Shown here: positions 1 to 41,492 of the stretch, piece after piece
How positions within the stretch are numbered: position 1 is the stretch's first letter
Layout of the letters: each line of letters starts with the position of its first letter
From: an uncultured Bacilli bacterium
GTDB lineage: Bacteria; Bacillota_I; Bacilli_A; RF39; UBA660
NCBI GenBank assembly: GCA_944372545.1
Contig: CALVZO010000016.1
Coordinates: forward strand, 21,668-85,667
Direction of reading: 5' to 3'
Length of the DNA stretch: 64,000 nucleotides
Made by a program: the position numbers and the translations under genes
Notes under the pieces: model-generated
Database searches by the model: none
The model's input: the letters and a program-made list of their open reading frames with translations, nothing else
Told to the model about the DNA's origin: nothing

Positions 1-2
1 AA

Positions 3-794
3 AGAAGTAGAAGTGGCATAAAAGACCCAAATAAGCCAATTGGATCATTTATCTTCCTAGGCCCTACTGGAGTTGGTAAAACTGAAGTTGCAAGAAGTCT
101 TGCTTATGAATTATTTGACGATGAACATCACCTAATTAGAATTGATATGTCTGAGTATATGGAAAAATATTCTGTTTCCAGACTAATCGGTGCTGCTCCC
201 GGTTACATCGGTTATGAAGAAGGAGGCCAATTAACTGAAGCAGTAAGAAGAAATCCTTATAGTATTGTTTTATTTGATGAAATAGAAAAGGCTAATCCAG
301 AAGTATTAAACTTACTTTTACAAATACTAGATGATGGTAGACTTACTGATTCTAATGGTAGAACAGTTGATTTTAAAAATACGATTATTATAATGACATC
401 TAATGTAGGTAGTGAATATATCTTAGAAGGAAAAGAAAATGAAGTATTAAAAGAATTACATCACTATTTTAAACCAGAATTTTTAAATCGTATTGATGAA
501 ATAATTATGTTCAATAAATTAAATAAAGATGTTTTAAAAGATATTTTAGGAAAAATTATTAATAATATTCAAAAATATTTAAGTGATTATAATGTGACTA
601 TTAACTTAGATAATAATGCTACTAATCATTTTATTGAAGAAGGTTTTAGTGAAGAATATGGAGCAAGGCCATTAAAAAGACTTGTAACTAAAGAATTAGA
701 AACACTTATTGCAGATAAAATAATTGCAGGTAATATTAAATATGGTGATAATATAAACGTTACTTTTAAAGATAATAAATTAGTTATTAATTAA
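3..794 (+). CDS. Clp/Hsp100 AAA+ chaperone (ClpB/ClpC-like), C-terminal part; 5' end lies outside the window
   Basis: Frame 3 is open from nt 3. It reads GPTGVGKTEVARSLAYELF (Walker A of the second AAA module), then a sensor-2 GARPLKR motif and a typical ClpB C-terminal domain. Confidence 0.85.
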   Translation, partial: RSRSGIKDPNKPIGSFIFLGPTGVGKTEVARSLAYELFDDEHHLIRIDMSEYMEKYSVSRLIGAAPGYIGYEEGGQLTEAVRRNPYSIVLFDEIEKANPEVLNLLLQILDDGRLTDSNGRTVDFKNTIIIMTSNVGSEYILEGKENEVLKELHHYFKPEFLNRIDEIIMFNKLNKDVLKDILGKIINNIQKYLSDYNVTINLDNNATNHFIEEGFSEEYGARPLKRLVTKELETLIADKIIAGNIKYGDNINVTFKDNKLVIN

Positions 795-1544
795 TTATAA
801 TAAATGATTAAATATAATTAAAATAGTTCCAATTAATAATCCGATATAGATATATTTATTTTCTTTATAAGATAAGGCTCTAGGTAACATTTCATGAATA
901 GATAAAGTTATCATTATTCCAGATACTAATATCAAAATAATACTAATCATAACATTAGTAACATAATCTTTTAAGAAAATATATGCAAGTATTGCCCCGA
1001 GTGGTTCTGCTAGACCTGATAAGAAAGTATTATATAATGCTTTCTTTTTTGATTTAGTCGCGTAATATATTGGTACAGCAATAGAAATACCTTCCGGTAT
1101 ATTATGAAACATTATGGCAAGAGATAATTTTAATCCTAAATTAACATCTTGAATACTTCCAATAAACGTTGCAATACCTTCCGGAAAATTATGAAGAATA
1201 AGTGCTAACATATTTAATATTCCTAATTTATATAATGAATTTTCATTTTTAATTAATTTATTTATAAGAAAAACTAATATTGCTCCAATTAAAAAGGAAA
1301 TAATAATTATTATGAATCCTAATATTCTATTAAAATTAAGTAATATTGTAAAAAAAGACGTTGGAATTAAATCTGTTATACTAATTCCTATCATAATTGC
1401 AATAGAAAAAGAAAGGCAAAAAGTTATAAATTTATCTATTTTGACTTTCTTTATATTAAAAAAGATAACTATACCGCCAAGTAGAGTAGACATACCGGCT
1501 AAACTAGATATTAATAAAGCATTTAATGCAGTCATACTATTCAC
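795..1544 (-). CDS. zupT: ZIP-family zinc transporter ZupT
   Basis: 249 aa, 8 TM segments. It carries the paired HNFPEG / HNIPEG motifs that are diagnostic of ZupT/ZIP. Confidence 0.8.
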   Translation of the reverse strand: MNSMTALNALLISSLAGMSTLLGGIVIFFNIKKVKIDKFITFCLSFSIAIMIGISITDLIPTSFFTILLNFNRILGFIIIIISFLIGAILVFLINKLIKNENSLYKLGILNMLALILHNFPEGIATFIGSIQDVNLGLKLSLAIMFHNIPEGISIAVPIYYATKSKKKALYNTFLSGLAEPLGAILAYIFLKDYVTNVMISIILILVSGIMITLSIHEMLPRALSYKENKYIYIGLLIGTILIIFNHLL

Positions 1545-1845
1545 CTTAATTAATAATATGTCTAATTAATATAGAGATGTTATTTACAATTAAAATTTGT
1601 TTTGTATTTATTAAGATATGTATATTTGATATACTCAAGATAGAGAAGTGAGTAGTGAGTTTTAGTGGAATCTTTATTAGCAATCTTTGTTCCAATTATT
1701 ATTGTAGTTCTAGTTTTATTATTCTTTTGCTTATGCATTTATCTATTTGCATATTATTTATATTTGCTGAGTGATTGTTATTATAATTTAATGACAAAAC
1801 ATGGTTATGAATTTACATTTATTAGAAAGAAGGAATAGAAATTTT

Positions 1846-2058
1846 ATGGAATATGTTTTAATGTTTTTATTTATATTTATTATTGTTATTTTATCATTAT
1901 GTTTATTATCTTTTTTCATAGGCATAGGTGTCTATATAACTATTGATACAGTTTATAAATTATTAGTAAAAAATGGTTATCAATTTAACATGTTAAGAAA
2001 TCCTAAAATAGACAAATTAATAATTTTAGAAAATGAAATAAAGAGAAATATAGAATAG
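1846..2058 (+). CDS. small hydrophobic membrane protein (hypothetical); start chosen at the internal Met with an AAGGAA SD
   Basis: The ORF track shows frame 1801..2058. The internal ATG at 1846 is preceded by aaggaa. One TM helix. Confidence 0.25.
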   Translation: MEYVLMFLFIFIIVILSLCLLSFFIGIGVYITIDTVYKLLVKNGYQFNMLRNPKIDKLIILENEIKRNIE

Positions 2059-2379
2059 GTAGTAGAATTTAAAATTATTAAATCATATTATATTTCGAAG
2101 TTGATGGTTAACATAACATAGATTATGCAATTGTAAACTATTGTATTTTTTTCTTGAAAATTCACTCAACTTCTTTATTATTTTTATTTAATAATTACAT
2201 ATTTTTTTACGAATTGATGTATAACGCATAACTTATTTTATAACTAAATCATTATTTAAATAATTTGATTTATTTTTTAATATTAAATTGTTTTTATAAT
2301 AACCTAATTAATATTTTAAATTAAGTTATATTATATATCCTATATTTATATATTATATAAGGATATATAGTAAAAAAAC

Positions 2380-2398
2380 AAAGAGTAGTTACACTCTT
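2380..2398 (-). terminator. intrinsic terminator of the 2398..3231 gene (AAGAGT-loop-ACTCTT hairpin followed by a U7 run on the minus strand); it overlaps the stop codon
   Basis: Read directly: aaaaaaacaAAGAGTagttacACTCTTta. Confidence 0.5.
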
Positions 2399-3231
2399 TA
2401 TTTAATTGGTTCAGAACTAACCCAATAATATGTTCCATCATCTGCTAATTTAAATACATGTTTATATTGAGTTGCGTAATTTTTCATAAATTTATAATTA
2501 ATTTCTTTTTGTTCTTTATATTCATTTGTACATTTTTCATTGATAGTAGTGGTAGTGTAGTTTGCAAAACAAGTATCGTCATTTATTTTAGCGAAATAAT
2601 CGTAAATTATTACTTCACTACCCTTCTCTATTGCCTTTTCTATAACACGATAGATAACTGATTCATTTCCTAAAGTATAAGTAAATGTTTCTGATAATCC
2701 ACAATAATATTTATCATCTTTTAAATAACAAATATTTAAGTTATCTACTTTAAATTCTTCATCATCTTCAATATCTTTACCAAATATCTTTTTATAAGTT
2801 TTATTGATTACTTCTTTATCTATAATACTCACAGAACATGTTTCAGTTTCTTCATCAACTCTAAAAATCATTCCATCAACATCACAAGTAGTTTCTTTCT
2901 TTTTAGGTTTGTATTCTTTAATTTCAACATCAGTTAATTCTGTTTTTTGATAAGCAAGACATAATCTTGATTCACTATTTACATCGCTATACTCTACTTT
3001 ATCATCAGCATAAGTAAATAATCCTTCACAATTACTTAAATCTTCGGAACTAAAATATTCATGTAATTCTGTAACTAATTCACTATCTAATTTTAAATTA
3101 TTTCTAGTTGCAATTTTTATACCAATTATTATTAATGATAATACCACTAATATACCAATTAATATTACTAAAACTTTATCATTAAGTATTCCTTTTTCTT
3201 TATTATTATTATTTTTACTAACTTTCTTCAT
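2398..3231 (-). CDS. hypothetical N-terminally anchored, Cys-containing exported protein
   Basis: 277 aa. A Lys-rich N-terminus is followed by one TM helix. No recognisable catalytic motif. Confidence 0.5.
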   Translation of the reverse strand: MKKVSKNNNNKEKGILNDKVLVILIGILVVLSLIIIGIKIATRNNLKLDSELVTELHEYFSSEDLSNCEGLFTYADDKVEYSDVNSESRLCLAYQKTELTDVEIKEYKPKKKETTCDVDGMIFRVDEETETCSVSIIDKEVINKTYKKIFGKDIEDDEEFKVDNLNICYLKDDKYYCGLSETFTYTLGNESVIYRVIEKAIEKGSEVIIYDYFAKINDDTCFANYTTTTINEKCTNEYKEQKEINYKFMKNYATQYKHVFKLADDGTYYWVSSEPIK

Positions 3232-3239
3232 AATTCCTA

Positions 3240-4010
3240 TTATACCTTTCTTGACTGTATTTCTGCTATTTTTTCAAATACTTCTGCAGCATTACCTTCA
3301 TTTATCTCTGTATAACCTAACTCCTTCAAAGCCTGTATTTTTGTTGTATTTAATTGTTGTGTTCTACTAAGTTTTTCTTCCTTTTTTTGCTCTATTTCTC
3401 TAACAAACCTTTTTCTACTTTCCATAACTTTGCTTTTACTAGCCCCACCATTATTATATAATGTTAAAGCCGAATATAAGATACTTTCAAATATATATTG
3501 TTTATCTTCATTAAAAGCATATTCTTCTGAATTTATAAATCCAGTTGTTTTGGCCATATAAGCAAGTATATATTTAATTTCTGGAACATTGTCCATTGAC
3601 TGTAACAAATTGTATAAATATCGAATTGCTGTATGATCATTATTTTTATTTTCTTCTAATTTTTCTTTGAGTATAAAAACAATATCATTTAATAATATTC
3701 GACTTTCTTTGTCTAAATCTTTAAAATCCATAAAGTTTTCAAACTCGCTACCATTCTTTAATCCAACATTTAATCTTTTTTCTACGTTCATTAAATATTC
3801 AGTATCAACTTTAATGTTTGCAAGTTCTTCATCACTACCCTCTTTTAAATCCAAAAGTTGAAGTAGTAATAATTTTTTTTCTTTCGGCCATTTATCTAAA
3901 TTATCTAAAACTAAATAATTGTAGACCATCTGTCTCGAAACTCCTAAATATTTAGAAAGTCTTACTTTAGAAACCCCTAATTCTTGTAGTAAATCATTTA
4001 ACTTATCCAT
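3240..4010 (-). CDS. XRE-family helix-turn-helix protein with an uncharacterised C-terminal domain
   Basis: The N-terminus LGVSKVRLSKYLGVSRQMVYNYL matches the HTH_XRE pattern. Confidence 0.6.
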   Translation of the reverse strand: MDKLNDLLQELGVSKVRLSKYLGVSRQMVYNYLVLDNLDKWPKEKKLLLLQLLDLKEGSDEELANIKVDTEYLMNVEKRLNVGLKNGSEFENFMDFKDLDKESRILLNDIVFILKEKLEENKNNDHTAIRYLYNLLQSMDNVPEIKYILAYMAKTTGFINSEEYAFNEDKQYIFESILYSALTLYNNGGASKSKVMESRKRFVREIEQKKEEKLSRTQQLNTTKIQALKELGYTEINEGNAAEVFEKIAEIQSRKV

Positions 4011-4088
4011 TACACTCTCTACTTTCTATATTTACAAGATAATTATACTTAACTTAACACTTACTTGTCAATATGAAAGTCGAAAAAA

Positions 4089-4769
4089 TTATATAACTTC
4101 CTTTTTTCTAATAATGAATACTTTATTTTTCTTATAAAAGCAATAAAATACATCTTCAATTTTTAAATTTTTTTTCATTAATATATTTTCTAGCCAAACT
4201 ATGTTTTTATTAATATGATCTAAAGCCTTTTTTTGAACACTACCATCTAAAATTAAAGGCATTGGGTATGCAGACTTAATTCTAAACATATTGTATTTAA
4301 ATATTGAAAGTTTTCCATTAGGTTCTAAAAATGCATATTCTACTTCATCAATATTTTTTATTTCTTTTTGTCTTAAACTTAAAAGCAAATTATCCATACT
4401 ATATCTTTGCTTAATCATTTCATGATAATTTACTTTCCCATTTACAATAATAAGAGAAGGCCTACCATCAAAAAAAGTTCTAATTTTTCTTGATTTAATT
4501 GAAATAAACGCTAAGATTATTTCTAATATTACTAATATTATAATTGGAACAATTGTCAAAAATATACTATCTTCAATATTTTCAATTGATATAGCAATTA
4601 ATTCTGCAATTAAAATAGAGACAATTAAATCAATAATTCCTAGTTGCCCTACTTCTCTTTTACCCATTAATCTATAACACAGAAGAACAAAAAAGTAAAA
4701 GAAAACTGTTCTAAAGATAACTTGTAAAAGTTCCATAAAATCACCTAAATATATTATGAACCAATTCAT
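4089..4769 (-). CDS. DUF421 / YetF-family membrane protein
   Basis: Two to three N-terminal TM helices plus a C-terminal YetF-like soluble domain (RxxxxFDGRP..IIVNGK pattern). Confidence 0.6.
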   Translation of the reverse strand: MNWFIIYLGDFMELLQVIFRTVFFYFFVLLCYRLMGKREVGQLGIIDLIVSILIAELIAISIENIEDSIFLTIVPIIILVILEIILAFISIKSRKIRTFFDGRPSLIIVNGKVNYHEMIKQRYSMDNLLLSLRQKEIKNIDEVEYAFLEPNGKLSIFKYNMFRIKSAYPMPLILDGSVQKKALDHINKNIVWLENILMKKNLKIEDVFYCFYKKNKVFIIRKKEVI

Positions 4770-4809
4770 ATTTTTTTAAACAAGTCATAAATATTTATTA
4801 GGTGGTTTT

Positions 4810-5172
4810 ATGAATAAATTATTTAATTATTTAAAATTCTTAAGTATATTTTTAATTTTAGAATTAATGATAACTTTTTTAGTAAGTCTACTTAATTTAA
4901 TTGGTGTAAATAGTGGGATTACAACAATTATTTTATTTATATTTAATATTATTTTATTTTTTATACTAAATTTTATAAATGCTAAAAATATTAAGAAAAA
5001 AGGTTACTTAGAAGGAATTATATTAGGTCTTATTTTTATATTTTTAATGTTTTTAATAAAAATAATCTTTTTTAATAGTAGTTTTAATATATCAACTCTT
5101 ATCTATTATATTATTTTACTTCTAGTATCTATTTTAGGTGGTATGTTTGGAGTAAATAAAAAAAGTGAATAA
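4810..5172 (+). CDS. small 4-TM membrane protein (hypothetical)
   Basis: 120 aa and very hydrophobic. It is preceded by AGGTGG-like ttaggtgg. Confidence 0.45.
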   Translation: MNKLFNYLKFLSIFLILELMITFLVSLLNLIGVNSGITTIILFIFNIILFFILNFINAKNIKKKGYLEGIILGLIFIFLMFLIKIIFFNSSFNISTLIYYIILLLVSILGGMFGVNKKSE

Positions 5173-6622
<1,450 letters not shown>

Positions 6623-6694
6623 TTATATCATATTTTTATTTTTAGGAAAATACTTCTTATCAAGATGCATTATGTAACAAATAATAATTATTTC

Positions 6695-6723
6695 TTGACA
6701 AAATAGCCATTTATAATTATACT
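6695..6723 (+). promoter_or_regulatory. sigma-70-type promoter: TTGACA, 17 nt, TATACT
   Basis: Read directly: ttgacaaaatagccatttataattatact, about 27 nt upstream of the 6750 ATG (SD aaaagggggg). Confidence 0.4.
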
Positions 6724-6749
6724 AAAATGCATAAAAAAGGGGGGATTTT

Positions 6750-7187
6750 ATGCGTTCTTTAAATCAAAGAAGTATCAATAATTTTTACCGAATTTTAAGA
6801 TACCAAAGATTTACTACAATTAGTGAAGAAAGAAAAGTAGAACTTGATGCTCTAGTAGAAAAATGGCGTTACTTTTTTCAAAATCAAACATCTGGAAAGC
6901 AAGCACTAATGACTTATGTTGCAGAAAAACTAACAGTTTCTTCTAAAAGTATTGGTTTAGTTAATGGTGATGAATCAGCATATTTTTATGTAAAAATGGT
7001 TGATCCAGAATTAAAATTTTTAGAAGCCTATGAAATGGCTAATAAAAAAGAAGAAATTAAACAAATTTGTGAAATGAACTTTGGCTTTTATGATATGGCC
7101 TTAATAAAATTAGAATATTTTTTAAATCTTCATTTTATGGAATATGAAAAAGATGATTTATGGACTAGAGAATCATTAAAAAGATAA
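6750..7187 (+). CDS. hypothetical cytoplasmic protein
   Basis: 145 aa ORF with a strong SD. No recognisable motif. Confidence 0.5.
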   Translation: MRSLNQRSINNFYRILRYQRFTTISEERKVELDALVEKWRYFFQNQTSGKQALMTYVAEKLTVSSKSIGLVNGDESAYFYVKMVDPELKFLEAYEMANKKEEIKQICEMNFGFYDMALIKLEYFLNLHFMEYEKDDLWTRESLKR

Positions 7188-7212
7188 ATCTATCGCGAGA
7201 TAGATTTTTTTA
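7186..7212. terminator. bidirectional intrinsic terminator (AAATCTATC-GCGA-GATAGATTT followed by T7) between the convergent 6750..7187 gene and queA
   Basis: Perfect 9-bp stem flanked by an A run and a T run. Confidence 0.55.
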
Positions 7213-8232
7213 TTTAATAAACATTGCATCACCGAACGAAAAGAATCGATAATTATTTCTTTTTGCTTCTTCATAAGCATTTAAGATAAATTCTCTTTTT
7301 GATAAGGCGCTAACTAACATTAAAAGTGTACTTTTTGGTAAATGAAAATTAGTTATAAGACCATCAATGGCTTGAAAATTAAAACCCGGATAAATAAAAA
7401 TATCTGTATTTCCATGACTATTTCTAAATTCACCATTATTTTTCATAACAGTTTCTAGCACTCTAGTTGAAGTAGTACCAACTGCATATATTTTTCTCTT
7501 TTCTTTTTTTGCTTTATTTAAAATTTTAGCAACATCTTCTTTCATTTCATAATATTCACTATGCATATGATGTTCTAAAATATTGTTAACTTCCACAGGT
7601 CTAAAGGTGCCTATTCCAACATGTAATGTTACATAACAAATTATAACTCCCCTATCTTTAAGTTCATTTAATAATTCGTTAGTAAAATGAAGACCTGCAG
7701 TTGGTGCTGCGGCACTTCCTAAATATTTAGCATATACAGTTTGATAACGATCTTGCTCTTTTAAACTTTCATGTATATATGGCGGAAGAGGCATTAATCC
7801 TATTTTTTCAATTAACTCTAAAAAAATACCTTTATAAAGAAATTTAACTAAAACTATTCCATCTTCTTTTTTATCTATTACAATACATTTTAATTCATTA
7901 CTAAAAATTATTTCAGTATCTTTATGTAATCTTTTTCCAGGTCTTGCTAAACATTCCCATACATCTTCTTCAATATTCTTTAATAATAAAATTTCAATTT
8001 TAGCATTAGTTACCTTTTTAGTTCCAATAAGTCTTGCAGGTAAAACCTTAGTGTCATTTAATACTAATACATCACCCTTATTTAAATAATCTTTAATATC
8101 ATAAAATCTTTTATGTTCAATATTACCATTTTCTTTATTCATAATCATTAATTTTGAATCACTTCTATTACTAATTGGTACTTGAGCAATAAATTTTTCT
8201 GGTAAATCGTAATTATAATCTTCAATATTCAT
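7210..8232 (-). CDS. queA: S-adenosylmethionine:tRNA ribosyltransferase-isomerase
   Basis: 340 aa. The N-terminus reads DYDLPE..IAQ.P. Full-length match to the QueA pattern. Confidence 0.9.
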   Translation of the reverse strand: MNIEDYNYDLPEKFIAQVPISNRSDSKLMIMNKENGNIEHKRFYDIKDYLNKGDVLVLNDTKVLPARLIGTKKVTNAKIEILLLKNIEEDVWECLARPGKRLHKDTEIIFSNELKCIVIDKKEDGIVLVKFLYKGIFLELIEKIGLMPLPPYIHESLKEQDRYQTVYAKYLGSAAAPTAGLHFTNELLNELKDRGVIICYVTLHVGIGTFRPVEVNNILEHHMHSEYYEMKEDVAKILNKAKKEKRKIYAVGTTSTRVLETVMKNNGEFRNSHGNTDIFIYPGFNFQAIDGLITNFHLPKSTLLMLVSALSKREFILNAYEEAKRNNYRFFSFGDAMFIK

Positions 8233-12157: not shown

Positions 12158-12934
12158 TTATGGATTTAATGATAAACTAACTGCTGCAGCAAATTTCTTA
12201 CCTTCGGTTGAACCATCTAATGATTCATCATGAGTAGCATTAGAATCAGCGTACATTGTTGAATCTCCTTCATAATAATCTACCCATAAATATATTTGAT
12301 AACTATTTGATGTATTTGCACTAATGCTTATATTATCTTCAATAGCATAAATGTTTTTTAATGTATAATTTGAATATTTAGTAGCAAGTTCACCATCAGT
12401 ACCAGTTAAATCACTATAGGCTTGATTACTTGAACTAACCACACTTAAATTACTTAAATAATCTATACCTTTATATGTTGTACTATTTTTTACTACTTGA
12501 TATCTAATTTTATTATCTTCAATATAACTAGAAGTACTACTAGTAAGTGCCATTGTGCTTAATGATAAAGTATAATTTTTTGCATCAGTACAATTATTAG
12601 TAACCGTAACAGTTACAGGAGTTGCCCCCCCACTAGTTGCTTTACTATCAGTAATTGGGTAATCATATGTTAAGCCAATATCAGTTGTACCTTCGCTTAA
12701 ACTTAAATTGATACACTCTAGGCTAGCATTAATATCTGCTAAAGTACTATCATGTTCAACATTAAATTGGAAATAAGCATACGTGACGGCAAAAGTGCCT
12801 AATATTAAAATAACTACAAACACTATTGCATAAAGCAAGTAAACATCATTTTTTTCTTTCTTTTCTTTTTCTTCCATATCAATCACTCTATTTTTATCTA
12901 AAATAATTATAATATATTTGTTGCAAATAATCAA
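12158..12934 (-). CDS. hypothetical N-terminally anchored Ser/Thr-rich surface protein
   Basis: One TM helix after a Lys/Glu-rich N-terminus, then a Ser/Thr/Asn-rich region. Confidence 0.45.
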   Translation of the reverse strand: MIICNKYIIIILDKNRVIDMEEKEKKEKNDVYLLYAIVFVVILILGTFAVTYAYFQFNVEHDSTLADINASLECINLSLSEGTTDIGLTYDYPITDSKATSGGATPVTVTVTNNCTDAKNYTLSLSTMALTSSTSSYIEDNKIRYQVVKNSTTYKGIDYLSNLSVVSSSNQAYSDLTGTDGELATKYSNYTLKNIYAIEDNISISANTSNSYQIYLWVDYYEGDSTMYADSNATHDESLDGSTEGKKFAAAVSLSLNP

Positions 12935-36101: not shown

Positions 36102-37034
36102 ATGAATAAATTTAAAAAAATTTTCACACTATTTTTATTTTTTACTGTATTTTATATTTTATTCAAACATAATTATATTTTAAATAAAAGTGTCATTGAT
36201 GGGGTAAACTTATGGCTTACTAAAGTATTTCCATCTCTTTTTATTATGTTTATCTTAAATAACTTAATAATAAACCTAGATATATTATCACCCCTTAGTA
36301 AATTACTTAGCCCCTCTTTTAATAAATTATTTAAAACAAAAGGTAAATCTGTAAATGCCTTCTTATTATCTATTATAAGTGGTACGCCAACATCTATTTT
36401 TATTATAAAGGAAATGCTTAAAAATAAACAAATTACAAGTAATGATGCCAATAAATTAATTGGTTTTACTTTCTTTTCTAATCCCTTATTTTTATATAAA
36501 ATATTAAGTCTTTCTTTTAATAAATTTATTACTATTAAAATTATTTTAATTCATTACTTGACAAATATTTTAATTGGATTAATTTTAAGAAATAAAATAT
36601 ATAATAATGATGAATTTGTTTTAATTAAAGATAGTATAAATAATAAAAACATATTATCTTTACTACCTGAGACTATAAAATCTAGTTTAAATACAATGAC
36701 AATGATTTTAGGAACAATTATCTTTTATATGATTATAACTAATTTATTTTTAAGTTTTACTAATATTAATAATACAATGAAAGTAATAATAAAAAGCTTA
36801 CTTGAAATTACCCAAAGTCTTAATATGTTGCCGAGTTTACAAATAAAATCCATAATAAAAGAAATTATAGCTATTTCTATAATCTCTTTTGGCGGTTTAT
36901 CTATTCATACCCAAGTTTTATCTTTAATGAATAACACTAATCTTGAATATAAAAACTTTTTTTATTCTCGTATTTTACATGTTTTAATTAGTGCAAATAC
37001 CTATTTGCTTATCTACTTTTGTATTCCCAGTTAA
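36102..37034 (+). CDS. polytopic membrane protein, YlbJ-like (nucleoside-recognition/Gate-domain type), hypothetical
   Basis: 310 aa with 8 or more TM helices. Confidence 0.4.
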   Translation: MNKFKKIFTLFLFFTVFYILFKHNYILNKSVIDGVNLWLTKVFPSLFIMFILNNLIINLDILSPLSKLLSPSFNKLFKTKGKSVNAFLLSIISGTPTSIFIIKEMLKNKQITSNDANKLIGFTFFSNPLFLYKILSLSFNKFITIKIILIHYLTNILIGLILRNKIYNNDEFVLIKDSINNKNILSLLPETIKSSLNTMTMILGTIIFYMIITNLFLSFTNINNTMKVIIKSLLEITQSLNMLPSLQIKSIIKEIIAISIISFGGLSIHTQVLSLMNNTNLEYKNFFYSRILHVLISANTYLLIYFCIPS

Positions 37035-37631
37035 ATAACTAGCATTAGTTCTATTTAAATCACTTTTATATGAAGCATAACTAATTTCAATATCATCTAC
37101 TGCATTATTTTTATCTTTATTATTTCGTTCATGATATAAACTATTATATAAATATATATTTAATTTGAAATAATAATTATCAGATAAATTATCGACATAG
37201 TATGTAAAATTACCACATAAATCTAATTCTGCCCCTTTCATTTCCCAAGAATATTTTTCGCCATTGTAACTTGTATAACGTAAATAATATTTTGTTTGTT
37301 CTACTCCAAGTTCATCTGTATATGTATTAGAATCACTTCTTAAAGTAGCGGTCTTAGTATTTGATAATCCTTCCCTATAATGAAAATTAATTACTAAAGC
37401 CCCATTAGTAGAAGTATCAGATACTCCCACTAAAGTATATTTATTTAAATCTTTACTTATTGTATATATTGCATCAGTTCTATTAACTTGATTATTATAA
37501 GCAAAATTATTATTATCAATTTCATTTCTTAAATCAGTAAGTAATTGTAATAAAAATGTCAATACTAAGCCAATTAAGACAATACTTACTAATAATTCAA
37601 TTAATGTCATACCTTTATTATTTAATTTCAT
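36984..37631 (-). CDS. type IV pilin-like / competence-type pseudopilin (start moved to MKLNNKG, directly before the prepilin cleavage site)
   Basis: KLNNKG|MTLIELLVSIVLIGLVL is a class III signal peptide, with G-1 and E+5. It is preceded by an AGGCGG SD. Confidence 0.6.
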   Translation of the reverse strand: MKLNNKGMTLIELLVSIVLIGLVLTFLLQLLTDLRNEIDNNNFAYNNQVNRTDAIYTISKDLNKYTLVGVSDTSTNGALVINFHYREGLSNTKTATLRSDSNTYTDELGVEQTKYYLRYTSYNGEKYSWEMKGAELDLCGNFTYYVDNLSDNYYFKLNIYLYNSLYHERNNKDKNNAVDDIEISYASYKSDLNRTNASYLTGNTKVDKQIGICTN

Positions 37632-37641
37632 AAGTACCGCC

Positions 37642-39045
37642 TTATCTAAAGTATACCGTACATACTGTCGGTCCATCACTTGTTACTGTTAGAGAGCCAT
37701 TTTTATATTCAATACTTGCTCCCCCAGTACAACCGGCATTATATAAGTCATAACCAACTGTAGGTACACTACTTAATTCGTATTTTTGCGTAGTTCTGTC
37801 CATTACATAAACTAAAACTTTTATATCGGCATCAGCCAAATCAAAATAAACATTACATACATCATTAGTAGAAGCACTAACATAAACGACATTATTTTCT
37901 ACTTTTATAGTACTGCCATTTTGACAATTACTTTTATCTTTATTATAAATATAACCTAAACTTGGAATACTAGATACACTTTCATAAGTACCATCAGATT
38001 TTTCTAAATAATAATTAATTAAAACATTATCGCTATATTTATTAAAGTATGCCCTACATGTACTTTGAGTAGTACCTTCACCATAAAGAGTACCATTAGT
38101 ATAAGTAATTTTGGCATCACTACTATCACATATATAACCAACATAAGCATAGCCAGACCCAGGAATACTATAAGTCCTGCTATATTTTTTACCTGTTGTA
38201 TAACCATTTACACCAGTTTCTGTCTCTTGCATAATTATAATTTCGACTTTATCATTTCCACCTTTAAAGTAGACATCACACTCATCTTTACCGGGAGATT
38301 CTACTAAAAGAGCATTAGTAGCATCATCTATAGTAATTGTTGCTAAATTATTTTTACAACTATATGTATCAAATACATAATTACTTCCAGGTACAGTAGA
38401 AGTTTCACTATACATTACACCATTAAATTCATGACTACCATTAGCGTCTTCCTTATAAAGATTTAAAATAATATCCATTTCAATTTTAGTAAAGTATACT
38501 TCACAAACGGTTTTTTGAGAAGAAGATATTGTAATTTTTCTAGTACTATCATTCCAATTTAAAGTAGCCCCATTAGTACAATTAGAAAAAGAATAACGAT
38601 AAACATTATTAGGAATATTAGAAACTAATCTTGCTTCAGCATCTTCACTTTCTTTTGTATATATTTTTAAAGTTATATCTTGTTCGGCTTCTTTAAAATA
38701 AACATAGCATGAATCTCTTCTTTGGGCCGTAACTGAAATATTACCATTAATATAGGAAAGAGAAGAACTATTTTTACAATAACTAAATTTTGGTTCATAA
38801 ACATAACCAATTGTTGGTACACTTTCTTTTATCTCATATTCATTTGTAACTGGATCCCAAACCATTATATATAAATTAATATCGGCAAGAGATTCATTAG
38901 CAATATCTTCTTTGATATCACGTTTAAATTCTTCTAGTAAAAAACGAACTCTTGTATAAGAATTAAGTAAAAATAACATTAACATTAAAAATATAATGAA
39001 AAATGTATAAATAACTGTTGTTGATACAAATCCATTTTTTTTCAT
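37642..39045 (-). CDS. large pseudopilin: prepilin-like N-terminus followed by about six tandem disulfide-paired domains of about 70 aa
   Basis: MKKNGFVSTTVIY... is a prepilin-like leader without E+5. The repeat unit has the form C.VYF..(I/L)..Y....G.Y..VS.IP..GY.Y....C.NG......G.L.V...... Confidence 0.55.
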   Translation of the reverse strand: MKKNGFVSTTVIYTFFIIFLMLMLFLLNSYTRVRFLLEEFKRDIKEDIANESLADINLYIMVWDPVTNEYEIKESVPTIGYVYEPKFSYCKNSSSLSYINGNISVTAQRRDSCYVYFKEAEQDITLKIYTKESEDAEARLVSNIPNNVYRYSFSNCTNGATLNWNDSTRKITISSSQKTVCEVYFTKIEMDIILNLYKEDANGSHEFNGVMYSETSTVPGSNYVFDTYSCKNNLATITIDDATNALLVESPGKDECDVYFKGGNDKVEIIIMQETETGVNGYTTGKKYSRTYSIPGSGYAYVGYICDSSDAKITYTNGTLYGEGTTQSTCRAYFNKYSDNVLINYYLEKSDGTYESVSSIPSLGYIYNKDKSNCQNGSTIKVENNVVYVSASTNDVCNVYFDLADADIKVLVYVMDRTTQKYELSSVPTVGYDLYNAGCTGGASIEYKNGSLTVTSDGPTVCTVYFR

Positions 39046-39047
39046 TA

Positions 39048-39641
39048 TTACACACTTACCCAACTATAATATTTATGACAATTATCATTACCGTTAGAAC
39101 CAGTACAAATGTTATATTCCACCACTAAAATATAAGTACATGATACATCAACATAAATTGTTTTTAAATAACTTATAAATTCATCACTTAAATTTGCATA
39201 TATACCATTACAATTTTCATATTCGGAACAATTTTTATCTAATGAACACTCTAAAGTACATTTTTTTAAATTATCTAATTTATTTTCTTTTAAAATAATC
39301 ATTTGATTAACTTCAAAATCACTTAACATATTAGATATGTATGTTCTCTCTTTTTCATGACCACTAAATAATTCGTTATATTCTACTCCTAAGGTTACAA
39401 AATATTTGTCTTGATTAGAAGTGATATCATTTAATACAGACATAATATTTAATTCATTAATTCTTGTTTTAATGTACCAAGAACGATAAATATAAGCAAT
39501 ATCATCATAATATATTCTTACCTTTTCTGACTGTAAAATTTTTGTAAATGAAGAATAAAGCAATAATAAAGAACTTGTTAAAACTACAATGGCAATAATT
39601 GTTTCAACAAAAACAAAGCCGTTTTTCTTCATTCTATTCAC
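39048..39641 (-). CDS. type IV pilin-like pseudopilin
   Basis: MKKNGF|VFVETIIAIVVL has G-1 and E+5. 197 aa with several Cys in the C-terminal half. Confidence 0.6.
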   Translation of the reverse strand: MNRMKKNGFVFVETIIAIVVLTSSLLLLYSSFTKILQSEKVRIYYDDIAYIYRSWYIKTRINELNIMSVLNDITSNQDKYFVTLGVEYNELFSGHEKERTYISNMLSDFEVNQMIILKENKLDNLKKCTLECSLDKNCSEYENCNGIYANLSDEFISYLKTIYVDVSCTYILVVEYNICTGSNGNDNCHKYYSWVSV

Positions 39642-39666
39642 TTCCCTATTATTAATTATAACCTAA

Positions 39667-39706
39667 AGTAATACTTTTATCAATGAAAAAAATATCGCTC
39701 AAAAAG
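39667..39706 (-). terminator. intrinsic terminator downstream of alaS (AAAUAUUGC-loop-GCGAUAUUU followed by U7 on the minus strand)
   Basis: 9-bp stem with one G·U pair. It separates alaS from the pseudopilin operon. Confidence 0.5.
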
Positions 39707-39713
39707 CAATATT

Positions 39714-41492
39714 TTATTCTAAAATTCCTTTAATTCTTCTTACTCCTGCCCCACTTGATTCTTCTTTAACAATTTTAAAATGGCCAAGAACACCTGTATT
39801 TTCAACATGAGGGCCACCACATATTTCTTTAGATAAATTACCTATTGTATAAACTTTAACTAAATCTTTATATTTACTATCGAAAGTCCCATGGGCACCA
39901 CTTTTCTTTGCATCTTCATAAGACATTTCTTTCCATATTACTGGGGTATTGGTTTTTATCATTTCATTAACTCTATTTTCTATTTTTACCTTTTCTTCAT
40001 CACTTAATTTATGGTCTAAATTAAAATCAAATCTAATTCGCTCATGAGTAATATTGCACCCTTTTTGAATTATGTCTTTACCATAAATTTCTTGTAAAGT
40101 GGCAAGAAGTAAATGAGCCAGTGTATGATATTTTGTCGATTCAATTGAAGTATCGGCAAGTCCGCCTTTAAAAGAACCAGCATCAATTGTTCTTGATTTT
40201 TCTTGATGTTCTTTAAAACATTGATTAAAGCCTTCAATATCGACTTTCAAATTATTTTCTTTTGCTAATTCTTCTGTCATTTCAATTGGAAATCCAAAAG
40301 TATCAAATAATTTAAAGGCATCACTTCCAGAGATAGTATCTTTATCTAAATGTTTTATAACGCGGTAAAATAACCTCTCTCCATCTTTTATTGTTTTAAC
40401 AAATTTATTATATTCTTTTTCCATTTCTGTAAATATAAATTCTTTATTACGAATTAACTCTTCATAAACACTTTTATATTCTTCGATATAAATATTTGCT
40501 AAATCATTTAAAACAAAACTTTCAATATTCAATTTTCTTAAATGTCTAATACTTCTTCGTATTAATCTTCTTAATACGTAACCTGCCCCAATATTACTTG
40601 GAGTTATACCATGGTCATCTCCTAAAATAAAGGTGCTTGTTCTAATATGGTCCATAATAATACGAAAACTTTTCTTATTATCTTCATATTTCATATTTGC
40701 TAATTCTTCTAATTTTTCTTTTACTCCTTTAAAAAGAGTTGAATCATATACACTTTCATAACCATTTAAAACAGTTATTGTTCTTTCTAATCCCATGCCT
40801 GTATCAACATTTTGTTGTTTTAATTTTGATAAATTACCATTTTCATCTTTATAATATTCCATGAAAACATCATTCCAAATTTCTAAATATTTACCACAGT
40901 CACAAGCCGGATTACAGTCATCACTACATTTTGGTTTACCCGTATCATAAAACATTTCTGTATCTGGGCCACATGGACCAATGCCACTTCCTAAAATCCA
41001 AAAGTTATTCTCTCTAGGTAAATAAAATAAATGATCATCTTCTACTCCAAGACTTTTCCAAATATTATAAGATTCAGTATCTTTTGGAAAATCTTCATCT
41101 CCTTTAAATACTGTAAAATATAATCTATCTATATCAATACCTAAATATTTTTCACTAGTTAAAAACTCATAACTATATTTAATTGCATCTTCTTTAAAGT
41201 AATCTCCTAAACTCCAGTTACCTAACATTTCAAAAAATGTTAAATGGGAATTATCACCAACTTCATCAATATCACTAGTTCTAATACATTTTTGATAATC
41301 ACATAATCTTTTACCAGCAGGGTGGGCTTCCCCAAGTAAATAAGGAACAAGGGGGTGCATTCCGGCAGTTGTAAATAATACAGTTGGATCATTTTCAGGA
41401 ATTATGGAAGAAGATGGAATAATTTTATGATTTTTACTTGCAAAAAACTCTAAATACTTTTCTCTTAATTCATTTGCAATTATCTTCTTCAT
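39714..41492 (-). CDS. alaS: alanine--tRNA ligase, short form (catalytic, tRNA-recognition and editing domains present; no C-terminal C-Ala domain)
   Basis: Class II AlaRS N-terminus (FTTAGMHP, GNWSLGDYFK). The editing domain has HTLAHLL and CGGPHV motifs. Only 592 aa. Confidence 0.75.
   Translation of the reverse strand: MKKIIANELREKYLEFFASKNHKIIPSSSIIPENDPTVLFTTAGMHPLVPYLLGEAHPAGKRLCDYQKCIRTSDIDEVGDNSHLTFFEMLGNWSLGDYFKEDAIKYSYEFLTSEKYLGIDIDRLYFTVFKGDEDFPKDTESYNIWKSLGVEDDHLFYLPRENNFWILGSGIGPCGPDTEMFYDTGKPKCSDDCNPACDCGKYLEIWNDVFMEYYKDENGNLSKLKQQNVDTGMGLERTITVLNGYESVYDSTLFKGVKEKLEELANMKYEDNKKSFRIIMDHIRTSTFILGDDHGITPSNIGAGYVLRRLIRRSIRHLRKLNIESFVLNDLANIYIEEYKSVYEELIRNKEFIFTEMEKEYNKFVKTIKDGERLFYRVIKHLDKDTISGSDAFKLFDTFGFPIEMTEELAKENNLKVDIEGFNQCFKEHQEKSRTIDAGSFKGGLADTSIESTKYHTLAHLLLATLQEIYGKDIIQKGCNITHERIRFDFNLDHKLSDEEKVKIENRVNEMIKTNTPVIWKEMSYEDAKKSGAHGTFDSKYKDLVKVYTIGNLSKEICGGPHVENTGVLGHFKIVKEESSGAGVRRIKGILE

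What the first reader, a model, noticed from the sequence alone, without database searches (positions are those of the whole stretch)
36984..39641. Stand-alone three-gene pseudopilin operon that includes a 467-aa pilin built from about six tandem disulfide-paired domains, with no assembly ATPase, platform or prepilin peptidase nearby
Three consecutive minus-strand genes all begin with class III (prepilin) leaders: MKKNGF|VFVETI, MKKNGF|VSTTVI and KLNNKG|MTLIEL. Two of them have the canonical E+5.

The middle gene follows its pilin-like N-terminus with about six diverged tandem copies of a roughly 70-aa module. Each is bracketed by two Cys (C.VYF...S.IP..GY.Y....C.NG...L.V). This suggests a modular fibre tip or adhesin subunit of a competence-type or type IV pilus.

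The operon is insulated by its own terminators. It is flanked by alaS and a convergent ylbJ-like gene. There is no comGA/pilB, comGB/pilC or comC/pilD in the window. The ORF-track N-terminal extensions (MMDRQ..., MGKCVIM...) are probably not translated.
Basis: partly seen in the sequence, partly recalled or inferred. Interest (0 to 1): 0.6.

Follow-up and report, generated by a model that had tools for sequence, protein, structure and literature searches.

The report
Three-gene minor-pilin cassette with repeat pilin
Three adjacent genes in an uncultured, very AT-rich gut bacterium encode pilin-like proteins, one of which carries six copies of a small, previously undescribed beta-sheet domain; it is most likely the tip piece of a type IV pilus whose motor genes lie elsewhere, which makes it a new example of a known kind rather than a new system.

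Summary
On the minus strand there are three tightly packed genes: g1 39048-39632 (194 aa), g2 37642-39045 (467 aa) and g3 36984-37631 (215 aa). They start MKKNG|FVFVE, MKKNG|FVSTT and MKLNNKG|MTLIE.

- **Pilin signals:** g3 passes the Pfam and TIGRFAM prepilin models and is predicted as a long helix plus a beta-sheet head. In g1 the Gly, Phe and Glu5 are invariant across 44 orthologues. g2 never has Glu5.
- **Repeats in g2:** g2 is one helix followed by six diverged all-beta modules of about 65 aa, each with two invariant Cys (AF2 pLDDT 81).
- **Conservation:** the cassette sits at the same place (alaS / cassette / convergent ylbJ-like / Lon-PDZ protease) in 23 species of uncultured herbivore-gut Bacilli. 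The g2 module count varies from 1 to 6 as a nested series.
- **Wider use of the module:** the same module occurs in more than 1,000 other surface proteins that have a different N-terminal motif.
- **No machinery nearby:** no ATPase, platform or prepilin peptidase was found in about 84 kb of this contig, or within 10 kb of the cassette in relatives. The rest of the genome could not be searched.

Best reading: a tip/priming set of minor pilins, with g2 as the Glu5-less cap carrying a variable-length stalk. It is a new member of the known class of modular pilins, of modest interest.

The parts
39685..39719 (-). Intrinsic terminator of alaS, which overlaps the alaS stop codon (hairpin followed by U7). 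It separates alaS from the cassette.
   Evidence: RNA fold -13.1 kcal/mol, z -4.2, 0 of 200 shuffles as stable. The consensus scan missed it because the stem has fewer than 3 G-C pairs.
39655..39683 (-). Promoter-like site TTGATA-17-TATAAT, 22 nt upstream of the g1 start codon.
   Evidence: Best match in the scanned region, 11 of 12 positions. This is a consensus match only; function was not tested.
39048..39632 (-). g1: 194-aa pilin-like protein, MKKNG|FVFVETIIAIVVL..., with a Cys-rich C-terminal half.
   Evidence: Called as 194 aa in the public record. M1, G5, F6 and E10 (Glu+5) are invariant in 44 orthologues. Weak match to the ComGE N-terminus, E 0.004. No Pfam hit. hhalign to g3 over the first helix, E 3e-4.
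38887..39045 (-). g2 N-terminal segment (residues 1-53): MKKNG|FVSTTVIYTFF..., a long hydrophobic then amphipathic helix with no Glu+5.
   Evidence: G5, F6, S8, T9, I12, Y13, F15 and F16 are invariant in 21 orthologues. AF2 predicts a helix at residues 9-51. The leader is shared with g1.
38680..38886 (-). g2 module 1 (residues 54-122). It is the only module present in the 116-131-aa orthologues.
38476..38679 (-). g2 module 2 (residues 123-190).
38251..38475 (-). g2 module 3 (residues 191-265).
38029..38250 (-). g2 module 4 (residues 266-339).
37828..38028 (-). g2 module 5 (residues 340-406).
37642..37827 (-). g2 module 6 (residues 407-467) plus the stop codon. The protein ends ...CTVYFR, with no LPXTG or other C-terminal anchor.
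36984..37631 (-). g3: 215-aa prepilin-type protein, MKLNNKG|MTLIELLVSIVLIG..., with two nearly invariant Cys (C139, C213) and a conserved NNAVDDIEI motif.
   Evidence: PF07963 and TIGR02532 above their cut-offs. G7, L10 and E12 invariant. AF2 pLDDT 88.2, helix 10-64 plus a beta sheet.
36102..37034 (+). Convergent ylbJ-like membrane protein whose 3' end overlaps g3 by 51 nt. It is a neighbour, not part of the cassette, and marks the conserved right-hand border.
   Evidence: TIGR02871, E 1.3e-44 but below the cut-off. The same position in all related loci that extend that far.

Best explanation
The three genes encode minor pilins of a type IV filament, that is, a tip or priming complex. The extension ATPase, platform protein, prepilin peptidase and major pilin would be encoded elsewhere in the genome.

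Proposed mechanism:
1. A prepilin peptidase cleaves each protein after the leader Gly (inferred).
2. The hydrophobic N-terminal helices of g1, g2 and g3 bundle together (inferred).
3. g2, the only one that always lacks Glu5, sits at the very top as the cap. This is the role that Glu5-less subunits play in other type IV filaments (by analogy).
4. Its beta module has been serially added at the C-terminus in this lineage. The result is a rigid, disulfide-stapled Ig-like stalk of 1 to 6 beads that projects from the pilus tip as a spacer or ligand-binding arm (the architecture is shown; the function is inferred).
For: **Shown**
- g3 passes the prepilin models and is predicted as a helix plus beta-sheet head with pLDDT 88.
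- In g1 and g3 the cleavage-site Gly and Glu+5 are invariant, and in g1 also the +1 Phe, down to about 40-46% identity. A charged residue inside a membrane helix is hard to explain except by pilin-type processing or assembly.
- g1 and g2 share the same MKKNGF leader.
- g2 never has Glu5 in 54 orthologues.
- The genes are separated by 2 and 10 nt, with a promoter-like site and the alaS terminator upstream.
- The trio is kept together and in the same order in 23 species.
- The AF2 model of g2 is one helix plus six all-beta modules, pLDDT 81. Its only structural matches are tandem Ig/cadherin-type arrays.
- One-module orthologues are 116-131 aa, the size of an ordinary small minor pilin.
- The module series is nested: N-m1, N-m1-m2, and so on up to m6.

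**From the literature**
- Tip complexes of minor pilins are capped by a subunit lacking Glu5 (PMC10191384).
- Modular pilins, some with many repeated domains, are widespread and are thought to be exposed at the tip (PMC8179133).
- Pilus genes can be scattered around the genome (PMC10191384).
Against: - No ATPase, platform, peptidase or major pilin lies in about 84 kb of this contig or within 10 kb of the cassette in 23 related species. Nothing yet shows that this lineage has a type IV filament machine at all.
- g1 and g2 do not reach any pilin family threshold.
- Foldseek of the g3 model against the PDB found no significant pilin match; the best E-value was 0.14.
- In the g2 model the end of the helix and the linker (residues 45-53) have low confidence, so packing of module 1 onto the helix as a true pilin head is not shown.
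- Only three pilin-like genes are present, not the four of the canonical H-I-J-K or ComGD-G sets.
- The module also occurs in many proteins that are not pilin-like, so it carries no pilus-specific information.
Confidence: 0.6

Rival explanations
1. The three proteins are signal-anchored surface proteins that are never polymerised. The pilin-like N-terminus then serves only as an uncleaved or differently cleaved membrane anchor, either a relic of a lost pilus system or a co-opted anchor. g2 would hold a stalk of Ig-like modules directly on the cell membrane or through the wall.
For: - No assembly gene is near the cassette in any of the 24 genomes examined.
- g2 lacks Glu5 and matches no pilin model.
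- The same module is used by more than 1,000 proteins with a different N-terminal anchor motif, so it behaves as a general cell-surface building block in these bacteria.
- These appear to be small, AT-rich genomes (24% GC), in which loss of machinery is plausible (inference).
Against: - Strict invariance of Gly-1, the +1 residue and Glu+5 in g1 and g3 across a deep lineage is not expected for a plain anchor.
- The trio is co-inherited as a unit.
- g3 has the full helix-plus-head architecture.
Confidence: 0.17
2. The cassette is the minor-pilin half (ComGE/F/G-like) of a split Com competence-pilus operon, so its role is DNA capture for natural transformation rather than adhesion.
For: - The best, though weak, family matches for g1 and g3 are to the ComGE N-terminus (E 0.004 and 3e-6).
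- The host is a member of the Bacilli, where Com pili are the commonest type IV filament (PMC12153270).
- The leaders are short, 5-7 residues.
Against: - All ComG models score far below their cut-offs and align only to the generic N-terminal helix.
- The proteins are 1.5 to 4 times larger than ComGD-G.
- Com genes are normally a single comGA-GG operon (PMC12153270), which is not the case here.
- No other competence gene was noticed in the window.
Confidence: 0.15
3. g2 is an annotation or assembly artefact, a fusion of several small genes, and not one protein.
For: None beyond its unusual length for a pilin.
Against: - It is an uninterrupted 467-codon frame.
- An identical protein occurs on independent assemblies from ENA, Logan and NCBI.
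- More than 60 full-length six-module orthologues were found at 40-70% identity.
- The structure prediction is confident along the whole chain.
Confidence: 0.01

Closest known systems
Modular type IV pilins (for example Streptococcus sanguinis PilB and PilC; survey in Raynaud et al. 2021, PMC8179133)
   Same: A pilin-type N-terminus is followed by extra extracellular module(s). Multi-repeat examples are known, up to 12 copies of one motif. These proteins are expected to be exposed at the tip and to add function to the filament.
   Different: - In g2 the repeated unit has no Pfam, NCBIfam or PDB sequence match.
- The N-terminus lacks Glu5 and is not detected by the IPR012902/PF07963-type model.
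- The shortest orthologues have just one module after the helix, so the repeat may itself be the duplicated 'head' rather than a foreign graft.
- Copy number varies from 1 to 6 at one syntenic locus.
Glu5-less cap subunits of minor-pilin tip complexes (GspK/PulK, PilK/PilX, ComGG)
   Same: It is the one subunit of a co-transcribed minor-pilin set that lacks Glu5, and the largest of the set. It is predicted to sit at the top of the filament (PMC10191384).
   Different: - There is no sequence match to GspK or ComGG models.
- The size increase comes from tandem beta modules at the C-terminus, not from an alpha-domain insertion.
- Only two partner pilins are encoded alongside it instead of three.
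Com (T4dP) pilus minor pilins ComGD-ComGG of Firmicutes (PMC12153270, PMC8727766)
   Same: The host is a monoderm member of the Bacilli, the leaders are short, the genes are small and co-transcribed, and the only weak family hits are to the ComGE, ComGC and ComGF N-termini.
   Different: The cassette is not next to comGA, comGB or comGC. It has three genes, not four. The proteins are much larger, and scores are far below the family cut-offs.
CofB/TcpB-type large minor pilins of type IVb pili
   Same: A single large minor pilin with additional beta-rich domains, linked to the pilin part and placed at the tip, replaces the four-pilin complex (PMC8179133, PMC10191384).
   Different: No sequence or fold match was found. 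Type IVb pilins have long leaders, whereas here the leader is 5 residues. CofB has a beta-repeat domain plus a beta-sandwich domain, not six equivalent Cys-paired modules.

Membership tests
Type IV pilin / class III signal peptide proteins (PF07963, TIGR02532, IPR012902) | A short basic leader ending in Gly, followed by about 20 hydrophobic residues. | tested here: met
   The three N-termini are MKKNG|FVFVETIIAIVVLTSSLLLLY, MKKNG|FVSTTVIYTFFIIFLMLMLFLL and MKLNNKG|MTLIELLVSIVLIGLVLTFLL. Gly and the +1 residue are invariant or nearly so in the orthologue alignments.
Type IV pilin / class III signal peptide proteins (PF07963, TIGR02532, IPR012902) | Glu at position +5 of the mature protein. | tested here: met
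   Met and invariant in g1 (E10) and g3 (E12). Not met in g2 in any of 54 orthologues; this is the known exception for cap subunits (PMC10191384).
Type IV pilin / class III signal peptide proteins (PF07963, TIGR02532, IPR012902) | A score above the curated threshold of the family models. | tested here: inconclusive
   g3 passes: PF07963 29.2 against 21.2 and TIGR02532 24.9 against 16.3. g1 has only a sub-threshold ComGE N-terminal match (17.3 against 49). g2 has no hit.
Type IV pilin / class III signal peptide proteins (PF07963, TIGR02532, IPR012902) | The 'lollipop' fold: an N-terminal helix of about 50 residues with a beta-sheet head packed on its C-terminal half. | tested here: inconclusive
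   - The g3 AF2 model has a helix at 10-64 and an antiparallel sheet (pLDDT 88, pTM 0.75). Foldseek against the PDB gave no match at E <= 0.001.
- The g2 model has a helix at 9-51, then a low-confidence linker, then the modules.
- g1 was not modelled.
Type IV pilin / class III signal peptide proteins (PF07963, TIGR02532, IPR012902) | Cleavage by a dedicated prepilin peptidase and assembly by a PilB/ComGA ATPase and PilC/ComGB platform encoded in the same genome. | not testable with these tools
   None was found in the window, in the roughly 10 kb beyond each end, or in 509 kb of related loci. The rest of assembly GCA_947854765.1 could not be read.
Com pilus minor pilins ComGD/E/F/G (NCBIfam NF041013, NF041002 and related models) | An equivalog-level match to a ComG minor pilin model. 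| tested here: not met
   The best scores are ComGE 27.1 (g3) and 17.3 (g1) against a cut-off of 49, and ComGF 13.5 against 80. All align only to the N-terminal helix.
Com pilus minor pilins ComGD/E/F/G (NCBIfam NF041013, NF041002 and related models) | Location in a comGA-comGB-comGC-...-comGG operon. | tested here: not met
   The cassette lies between alaS and a ylbJ-like gene in this genome and in 23 related species.
Modular pilins (sensu Raynaud et al. 2021) | An N-terminal pilin module joined by a linker to one or more additional domains not specific to pilus biology. | tested here: met
   - g2 is a pilin-type helix plus six discrete beta modules.
- The module also occurs in proteins that are not pilins.
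- Caveat: whether module 1 is the pilin head or an added domain is unresolved.
GspK/T2SS-K cap pseudopilin | Sequence or fold membership of the GspK family (an alpha-domain inserted in the pilin head). | tested here: not met
   No Pfam or NCBIfam GspK hit. The model has no alpha-domain. Only the functional analogy holds: no Glu5, and the largest subunit of the set.

The most novel reading that the evidence does not exclude
In this lineage the head domain of the cap pilin has itself been duplicated in series, producing a length-adjustable, disulfide-stapled stalk of 1 to 6 beads at the pilus tip. The same domain has also been spread to a second, very large class of surface proteins that carry a (S/T)YA(Y/F)(Y/F)Q-type N-terminal motif. 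Together this would be a lineage-wide surface 'construction kit' shared between two different anchoring or assembly routes. A more extreme version is that these bacteria have no type IV filament motor at all and use class III-type N-termini without a pilus.
Probability: 0.25. Interest if true: 0.55.

Novelty: new member of a known kind. Interest (0 to 1): 0.33.

Why it matters
- **Annotation.** It gives a name and a testable role to a conserved trio. Where NCBI names are on record for orthologues, g1 and g2 are 'hypothetical protein' and g3 carries only a generic prepilin-domain name. The trio belongs to a widespread but uncultured group of herbivore-gut Bacilli.
- **A new domain.** It adds an undescribed Cys-paired beta module, found in more than 1,000 proteins, to the repertoire of domains carried by pilins.
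- **A natural length series.** The 1-to-6 module series in a Glu5-less cap pilin could be used to ask how far a pilus tip can be extended, and what the extension is for.
- **What it does not change.** It does not alter how type IV filaments are thought to work.

Tried and rejected
- **Pfam, NCBIfam and PDB sequence searches on g1 and g2.** There was no family match and no solved relative. g3 matched only pilin N-terminal helices (Thermus PilA4/PilA5, Geobacter pilin; E 0.016-1).
- **Foldseek of the whole g2 model against the PDB.** The only matches were low-probability ones to cadherin, Ig and POTRA arrays, which says 'tandem beta domains' and nothing more specific.
- **Foldseek of the g3 model against the PDB.** Nothing was significant.
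- **Search for assembly genes.** I used Walker A, Walker B and His-box motifs of T2SS-E ATPases and the GGGDxK motif of A24 peptidases over 509 kb of held sequence. There were no matches.
- **Extending the contig beyond the window.** About 10 kb at each end held only housekeeping genes.
- **Testing whether the xYAYFx motif proteins are TasA/SipW-type.** The NCBIfam scan gave no signal-peptide model hit, and there was no signal peptidase next to one example. That label is therefore only a recollection, not a result.
- **DNA-level tandem repeats.** None were found.
- **Fusion or assembly artefact for g2.** Considered and rejected.
- **Functional link to the neighbouring Lon-PDZ (SepM/YlbL-like) protease and ylbJ-like gene.** Considered and rejected. 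From my own knowledge of Bacillus gene order, this pairing looks like ordinary conserved synteny. The match to SepM is below the cut-off (127.8 against 200).


Full report
**What is there**

The window is very AT-rich (about 24% GC). It corresponds to positions 43973-107972 of contig CANTZJ010000001.1 (117,883 bp) of the metagenome-assembled genome GCA_947854765.1.

Three tightly packed genes lie on the minus strand between alaS (39714-41492) and a convergent ylbJ-like gene (36102-37034):

| Gene | Coordinates | Length |
|---|---|---|
| g1 | 39048-39632 | 194 aa |
| g2 | 37642-39045 | 467 aa |
| g3 | 36984-37631 | 215 aa |

These calls come from the ORF list and sequence. The gaps between genes are 2 and 10 nt. 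The starts I use are those of the public gene calls and of every orthologue. The longer N-terminal extensions in the raw ORF list are therefore not real.

Upstream, alaS ends in a strong hairpin followed by U7 (-13.1 kcal/mol, z -4.2). The best promoter-like site of the region, TTGATA-17-TATAAT, lies 22 nt before g1. Downstream there is no terminator: g3 overlaps the convergent gene by 51 nt and nothing there folds better than chance.

**Are they pilins?**

*g3.* It passes both curated prepilin models (PF07963 29.2 bits against 21.2; TIGR02532 24.9 against 16.3). Its AlphaFold2 model (pLDDT 88, pTM 0.75) is a 55-residue N-terminal helix followed by an antiparallel sheet. Gly-1, Leu+3 and Glu+5 are invariant in 43 orthologues. 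Two Cys (139 and 213, near the C-terminus) are nearly invariant.

*g1.* It has no Pfam hit and only a weak ComGE-like N-terminal match. However, M-K-K-N-G-F-x-x-x-E is invariant or nearly so in 44 orthologues. Its profile aligns with that of g3 over the whole first helix (hhalign E 3e-4).

*g2.* It shares the MKKNGF leader with g1 and has a long predicted helix (residues 9-51). It never has Glu+5.

In six-frame translations of about 84 kb of this contig, a Glu5-containing class III motif near the start of a reading frame occurs only in g1 and g3; the few other matches lie far inside long ORFs.

**The repeat protein**

After the helix, g2 has six modules of 61-75 residues, each with two Cys. 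Pairwise alignment scores exceed shuffled controls by 3 to 19 standard deviations. All 12 Cys are invariant in the 21-sequence alignment; 11 are invariant and one nearly so in the 54-sequence alignment.

AlphaFold2 models six separate all-beta domains of about six strands each (mean pLDDT 81). The low pTM of 0.37 is what one expects for beads on a string. The only structural matches are low-probability ones to cadherin, immunoglobulin and POTRA arrays.

No Pfam, NCBIfam or PDB sequence match exists for the module. There is no repeat at the DNA level, so the duplications are old.

**Relatives**

All three proteins have homologues only in metagenomes and in MAGs of uncultured Bacilli from goat, rabbit and rumen samples. 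In 23 species representatives, wherever the contig extends that far, the order is:

dNMP kinase - alaS - (occasional insert) - g1 - g2 - g3 - convergent ylbJ-like - Lon/PDZ protease

This is a core chromosomal locus of a lineage, not an island.

g1 and g3 keep their lengths across these species. g2 ranges from 116-131 aa (helix plus one module) through 190-199, 260-295, 332 and 371-408 aa to 464-502 aa.

I assigned each module to the six window-derived module profiles. This gives a nested series:

| Architecture | Proteins |
|---|---|
| N-m1 | 21 |
| N-m1-m2 | 9 |
| N-m1-m2-m3 | 1 |
| N-m1 to m4 | 5 |
| N-m1 to m5 | 3 |
| N-m1 to m6 | 63 |

A few proteins have internal deletions of whole modules. 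Some short metagenomic entries may be fragments, but the variants read from genome loci are complete genes followed by g3.

**The module elsewhere**

A profile search of 1.84 billion representative proteins found 1,132 hits at E <= 0.001. Among the top 139 new hits:
- 35 have the g2-type leader.
- At least 34 have a different N-terminus: a hydrophobic segment ending in (S/T)YA(Y/F)(Y/F)Q or similar, followed by 2-4 modules. Some also carry an fn3 domain and an ALK/LTK-type glycine-rich domain.
- Many of the rest have close variants of that motif.

From memory, this motif resembles TasA/camelysin-type signal peptides. I could not confirm that.

The module is therefore a general extracellular building block in these bacteria, not a pilus-specific one.

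**Assembly machinery**

I found no T2SS-E type ATPase, T2SS-F platform protein, A24 peptidase or small major pilin:
- in the window,
- in the roughly 10 kb beyond each end,
- in 509 kb of related loci, by motif search.

The remainder of the genome could not be read with the tools available. 'Stand-alone' is therefore true locally and unproven globally.

**Interpretation**

The best-supported reading is a set of minor pilins that forms the tip or priming complex of a type IV filament whose motor is encoded elsewhere. Published work supports each step:
- Such complexes are capped by a Glu5-less subunit, and pilus genes can be scattered (PMC10191384).
- Modular pilins, including multi-repeat ones, are widespread and are thought to be tip-exposed (PMC8179133).

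g2 fits the cap role: it lacks Glu5, is the largest of the set, and lies between two Glu5-bearing partners in the operon. Its variable module count suggests a spacer or ligand-binding stalk.

What is shown:
- the sequence features and their conservation;
- the architecture and the synteny;
- the module series.

What is inferred:
- cleavage and co-assembly;
- the tip position;
- any adhesive function.

Assignment to the Com competence pilus specifically is not supported. The ComG models score far below their cut-offs, and the genes are not in a comG operon (PMC12153270).

The main rival is that the N-termini are mere anchors in a lineage without a pilus machine. It cannot be excluded until whole genomes are searched. 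The invariance of Glu5 argues against it.

**Verdict**

This is a new member of the known class of minor and modular type IV pilins. It has an undescribed repeat domain and an attractive natural series of lengths. Interest is modest, at 0.33.

Noticed in passing
window 12158-12934 (-); also L002 7534-9327, L016 7870-9330, L014 8139-9809: These proteins have an N-terminal hydrophobic segment ending in a G(T/A)FA(Y/F)F or TYAYFQ-type motif. In some relatives (L001/L002/L006, L016) such a gene (486-597 aa) sits directly between alaS and g1. The same motif heads many of the non-pilin proteins that carry the g2 module. From memory it resembles TasA/camelysin signal peptides, but no model confirmed this.
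   Followed up: partly
window 39714-41492 (-): The alanyl-tRNA synthetase is a short form of 592 aa. It matches the NF002436/PRK01584 model end to end and lacks the C-terminal part of the usual enzyme of about 870 aa. Relatives have the same 582-593-aa form.
   Followed up: no
L001 versus L002, positions 1-7500: Two metagenome contigs carry identical sequence from the 597-aa gene onward but have completely different genes upstream (alaS side against a LytR/PBP5/phosphoketolase side). This suggests a rearrangement between strains or a chimeric assembly.
   Followed up: no
P0068 (418 aa, ENA metagenome): One homologue has a serine-recombinase N-terminus (PF07508, PF13408) fused in frame to g2 modules 3-6. 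It is probably a mobile-element insertion into g2 or a miscalled gene.
   Followed up: no
window 24985-27835 (-): Two adjacent large ORFs (308 and 644 aa) have N-terminal membrane anchors and repeated Cys-containing, Tyr/Asn-rich segments. No function was assigned and they were not examined further.
   Followed up: no
window 46469-47645 (+): A DUF3800 protein and an overlapping small ORF lie on the opposite strand to nearly everything else, in the only interior stretch of the window with positive GC skew. A DUF3800 gene also lies next to recD2 in L001. This may be a small inserted element.
   Followed up: no
window 5173-5496 (-): A small 107-aa membrane-anchored protein lies downstream of tgt. 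Its hydrophobic segment (…[15 protein letters not shown]…) recalls the first helix of a pilin, but it has no Gly cleavage site or Glu5. It has no Pfam hit in the public call.
   Followed up: no
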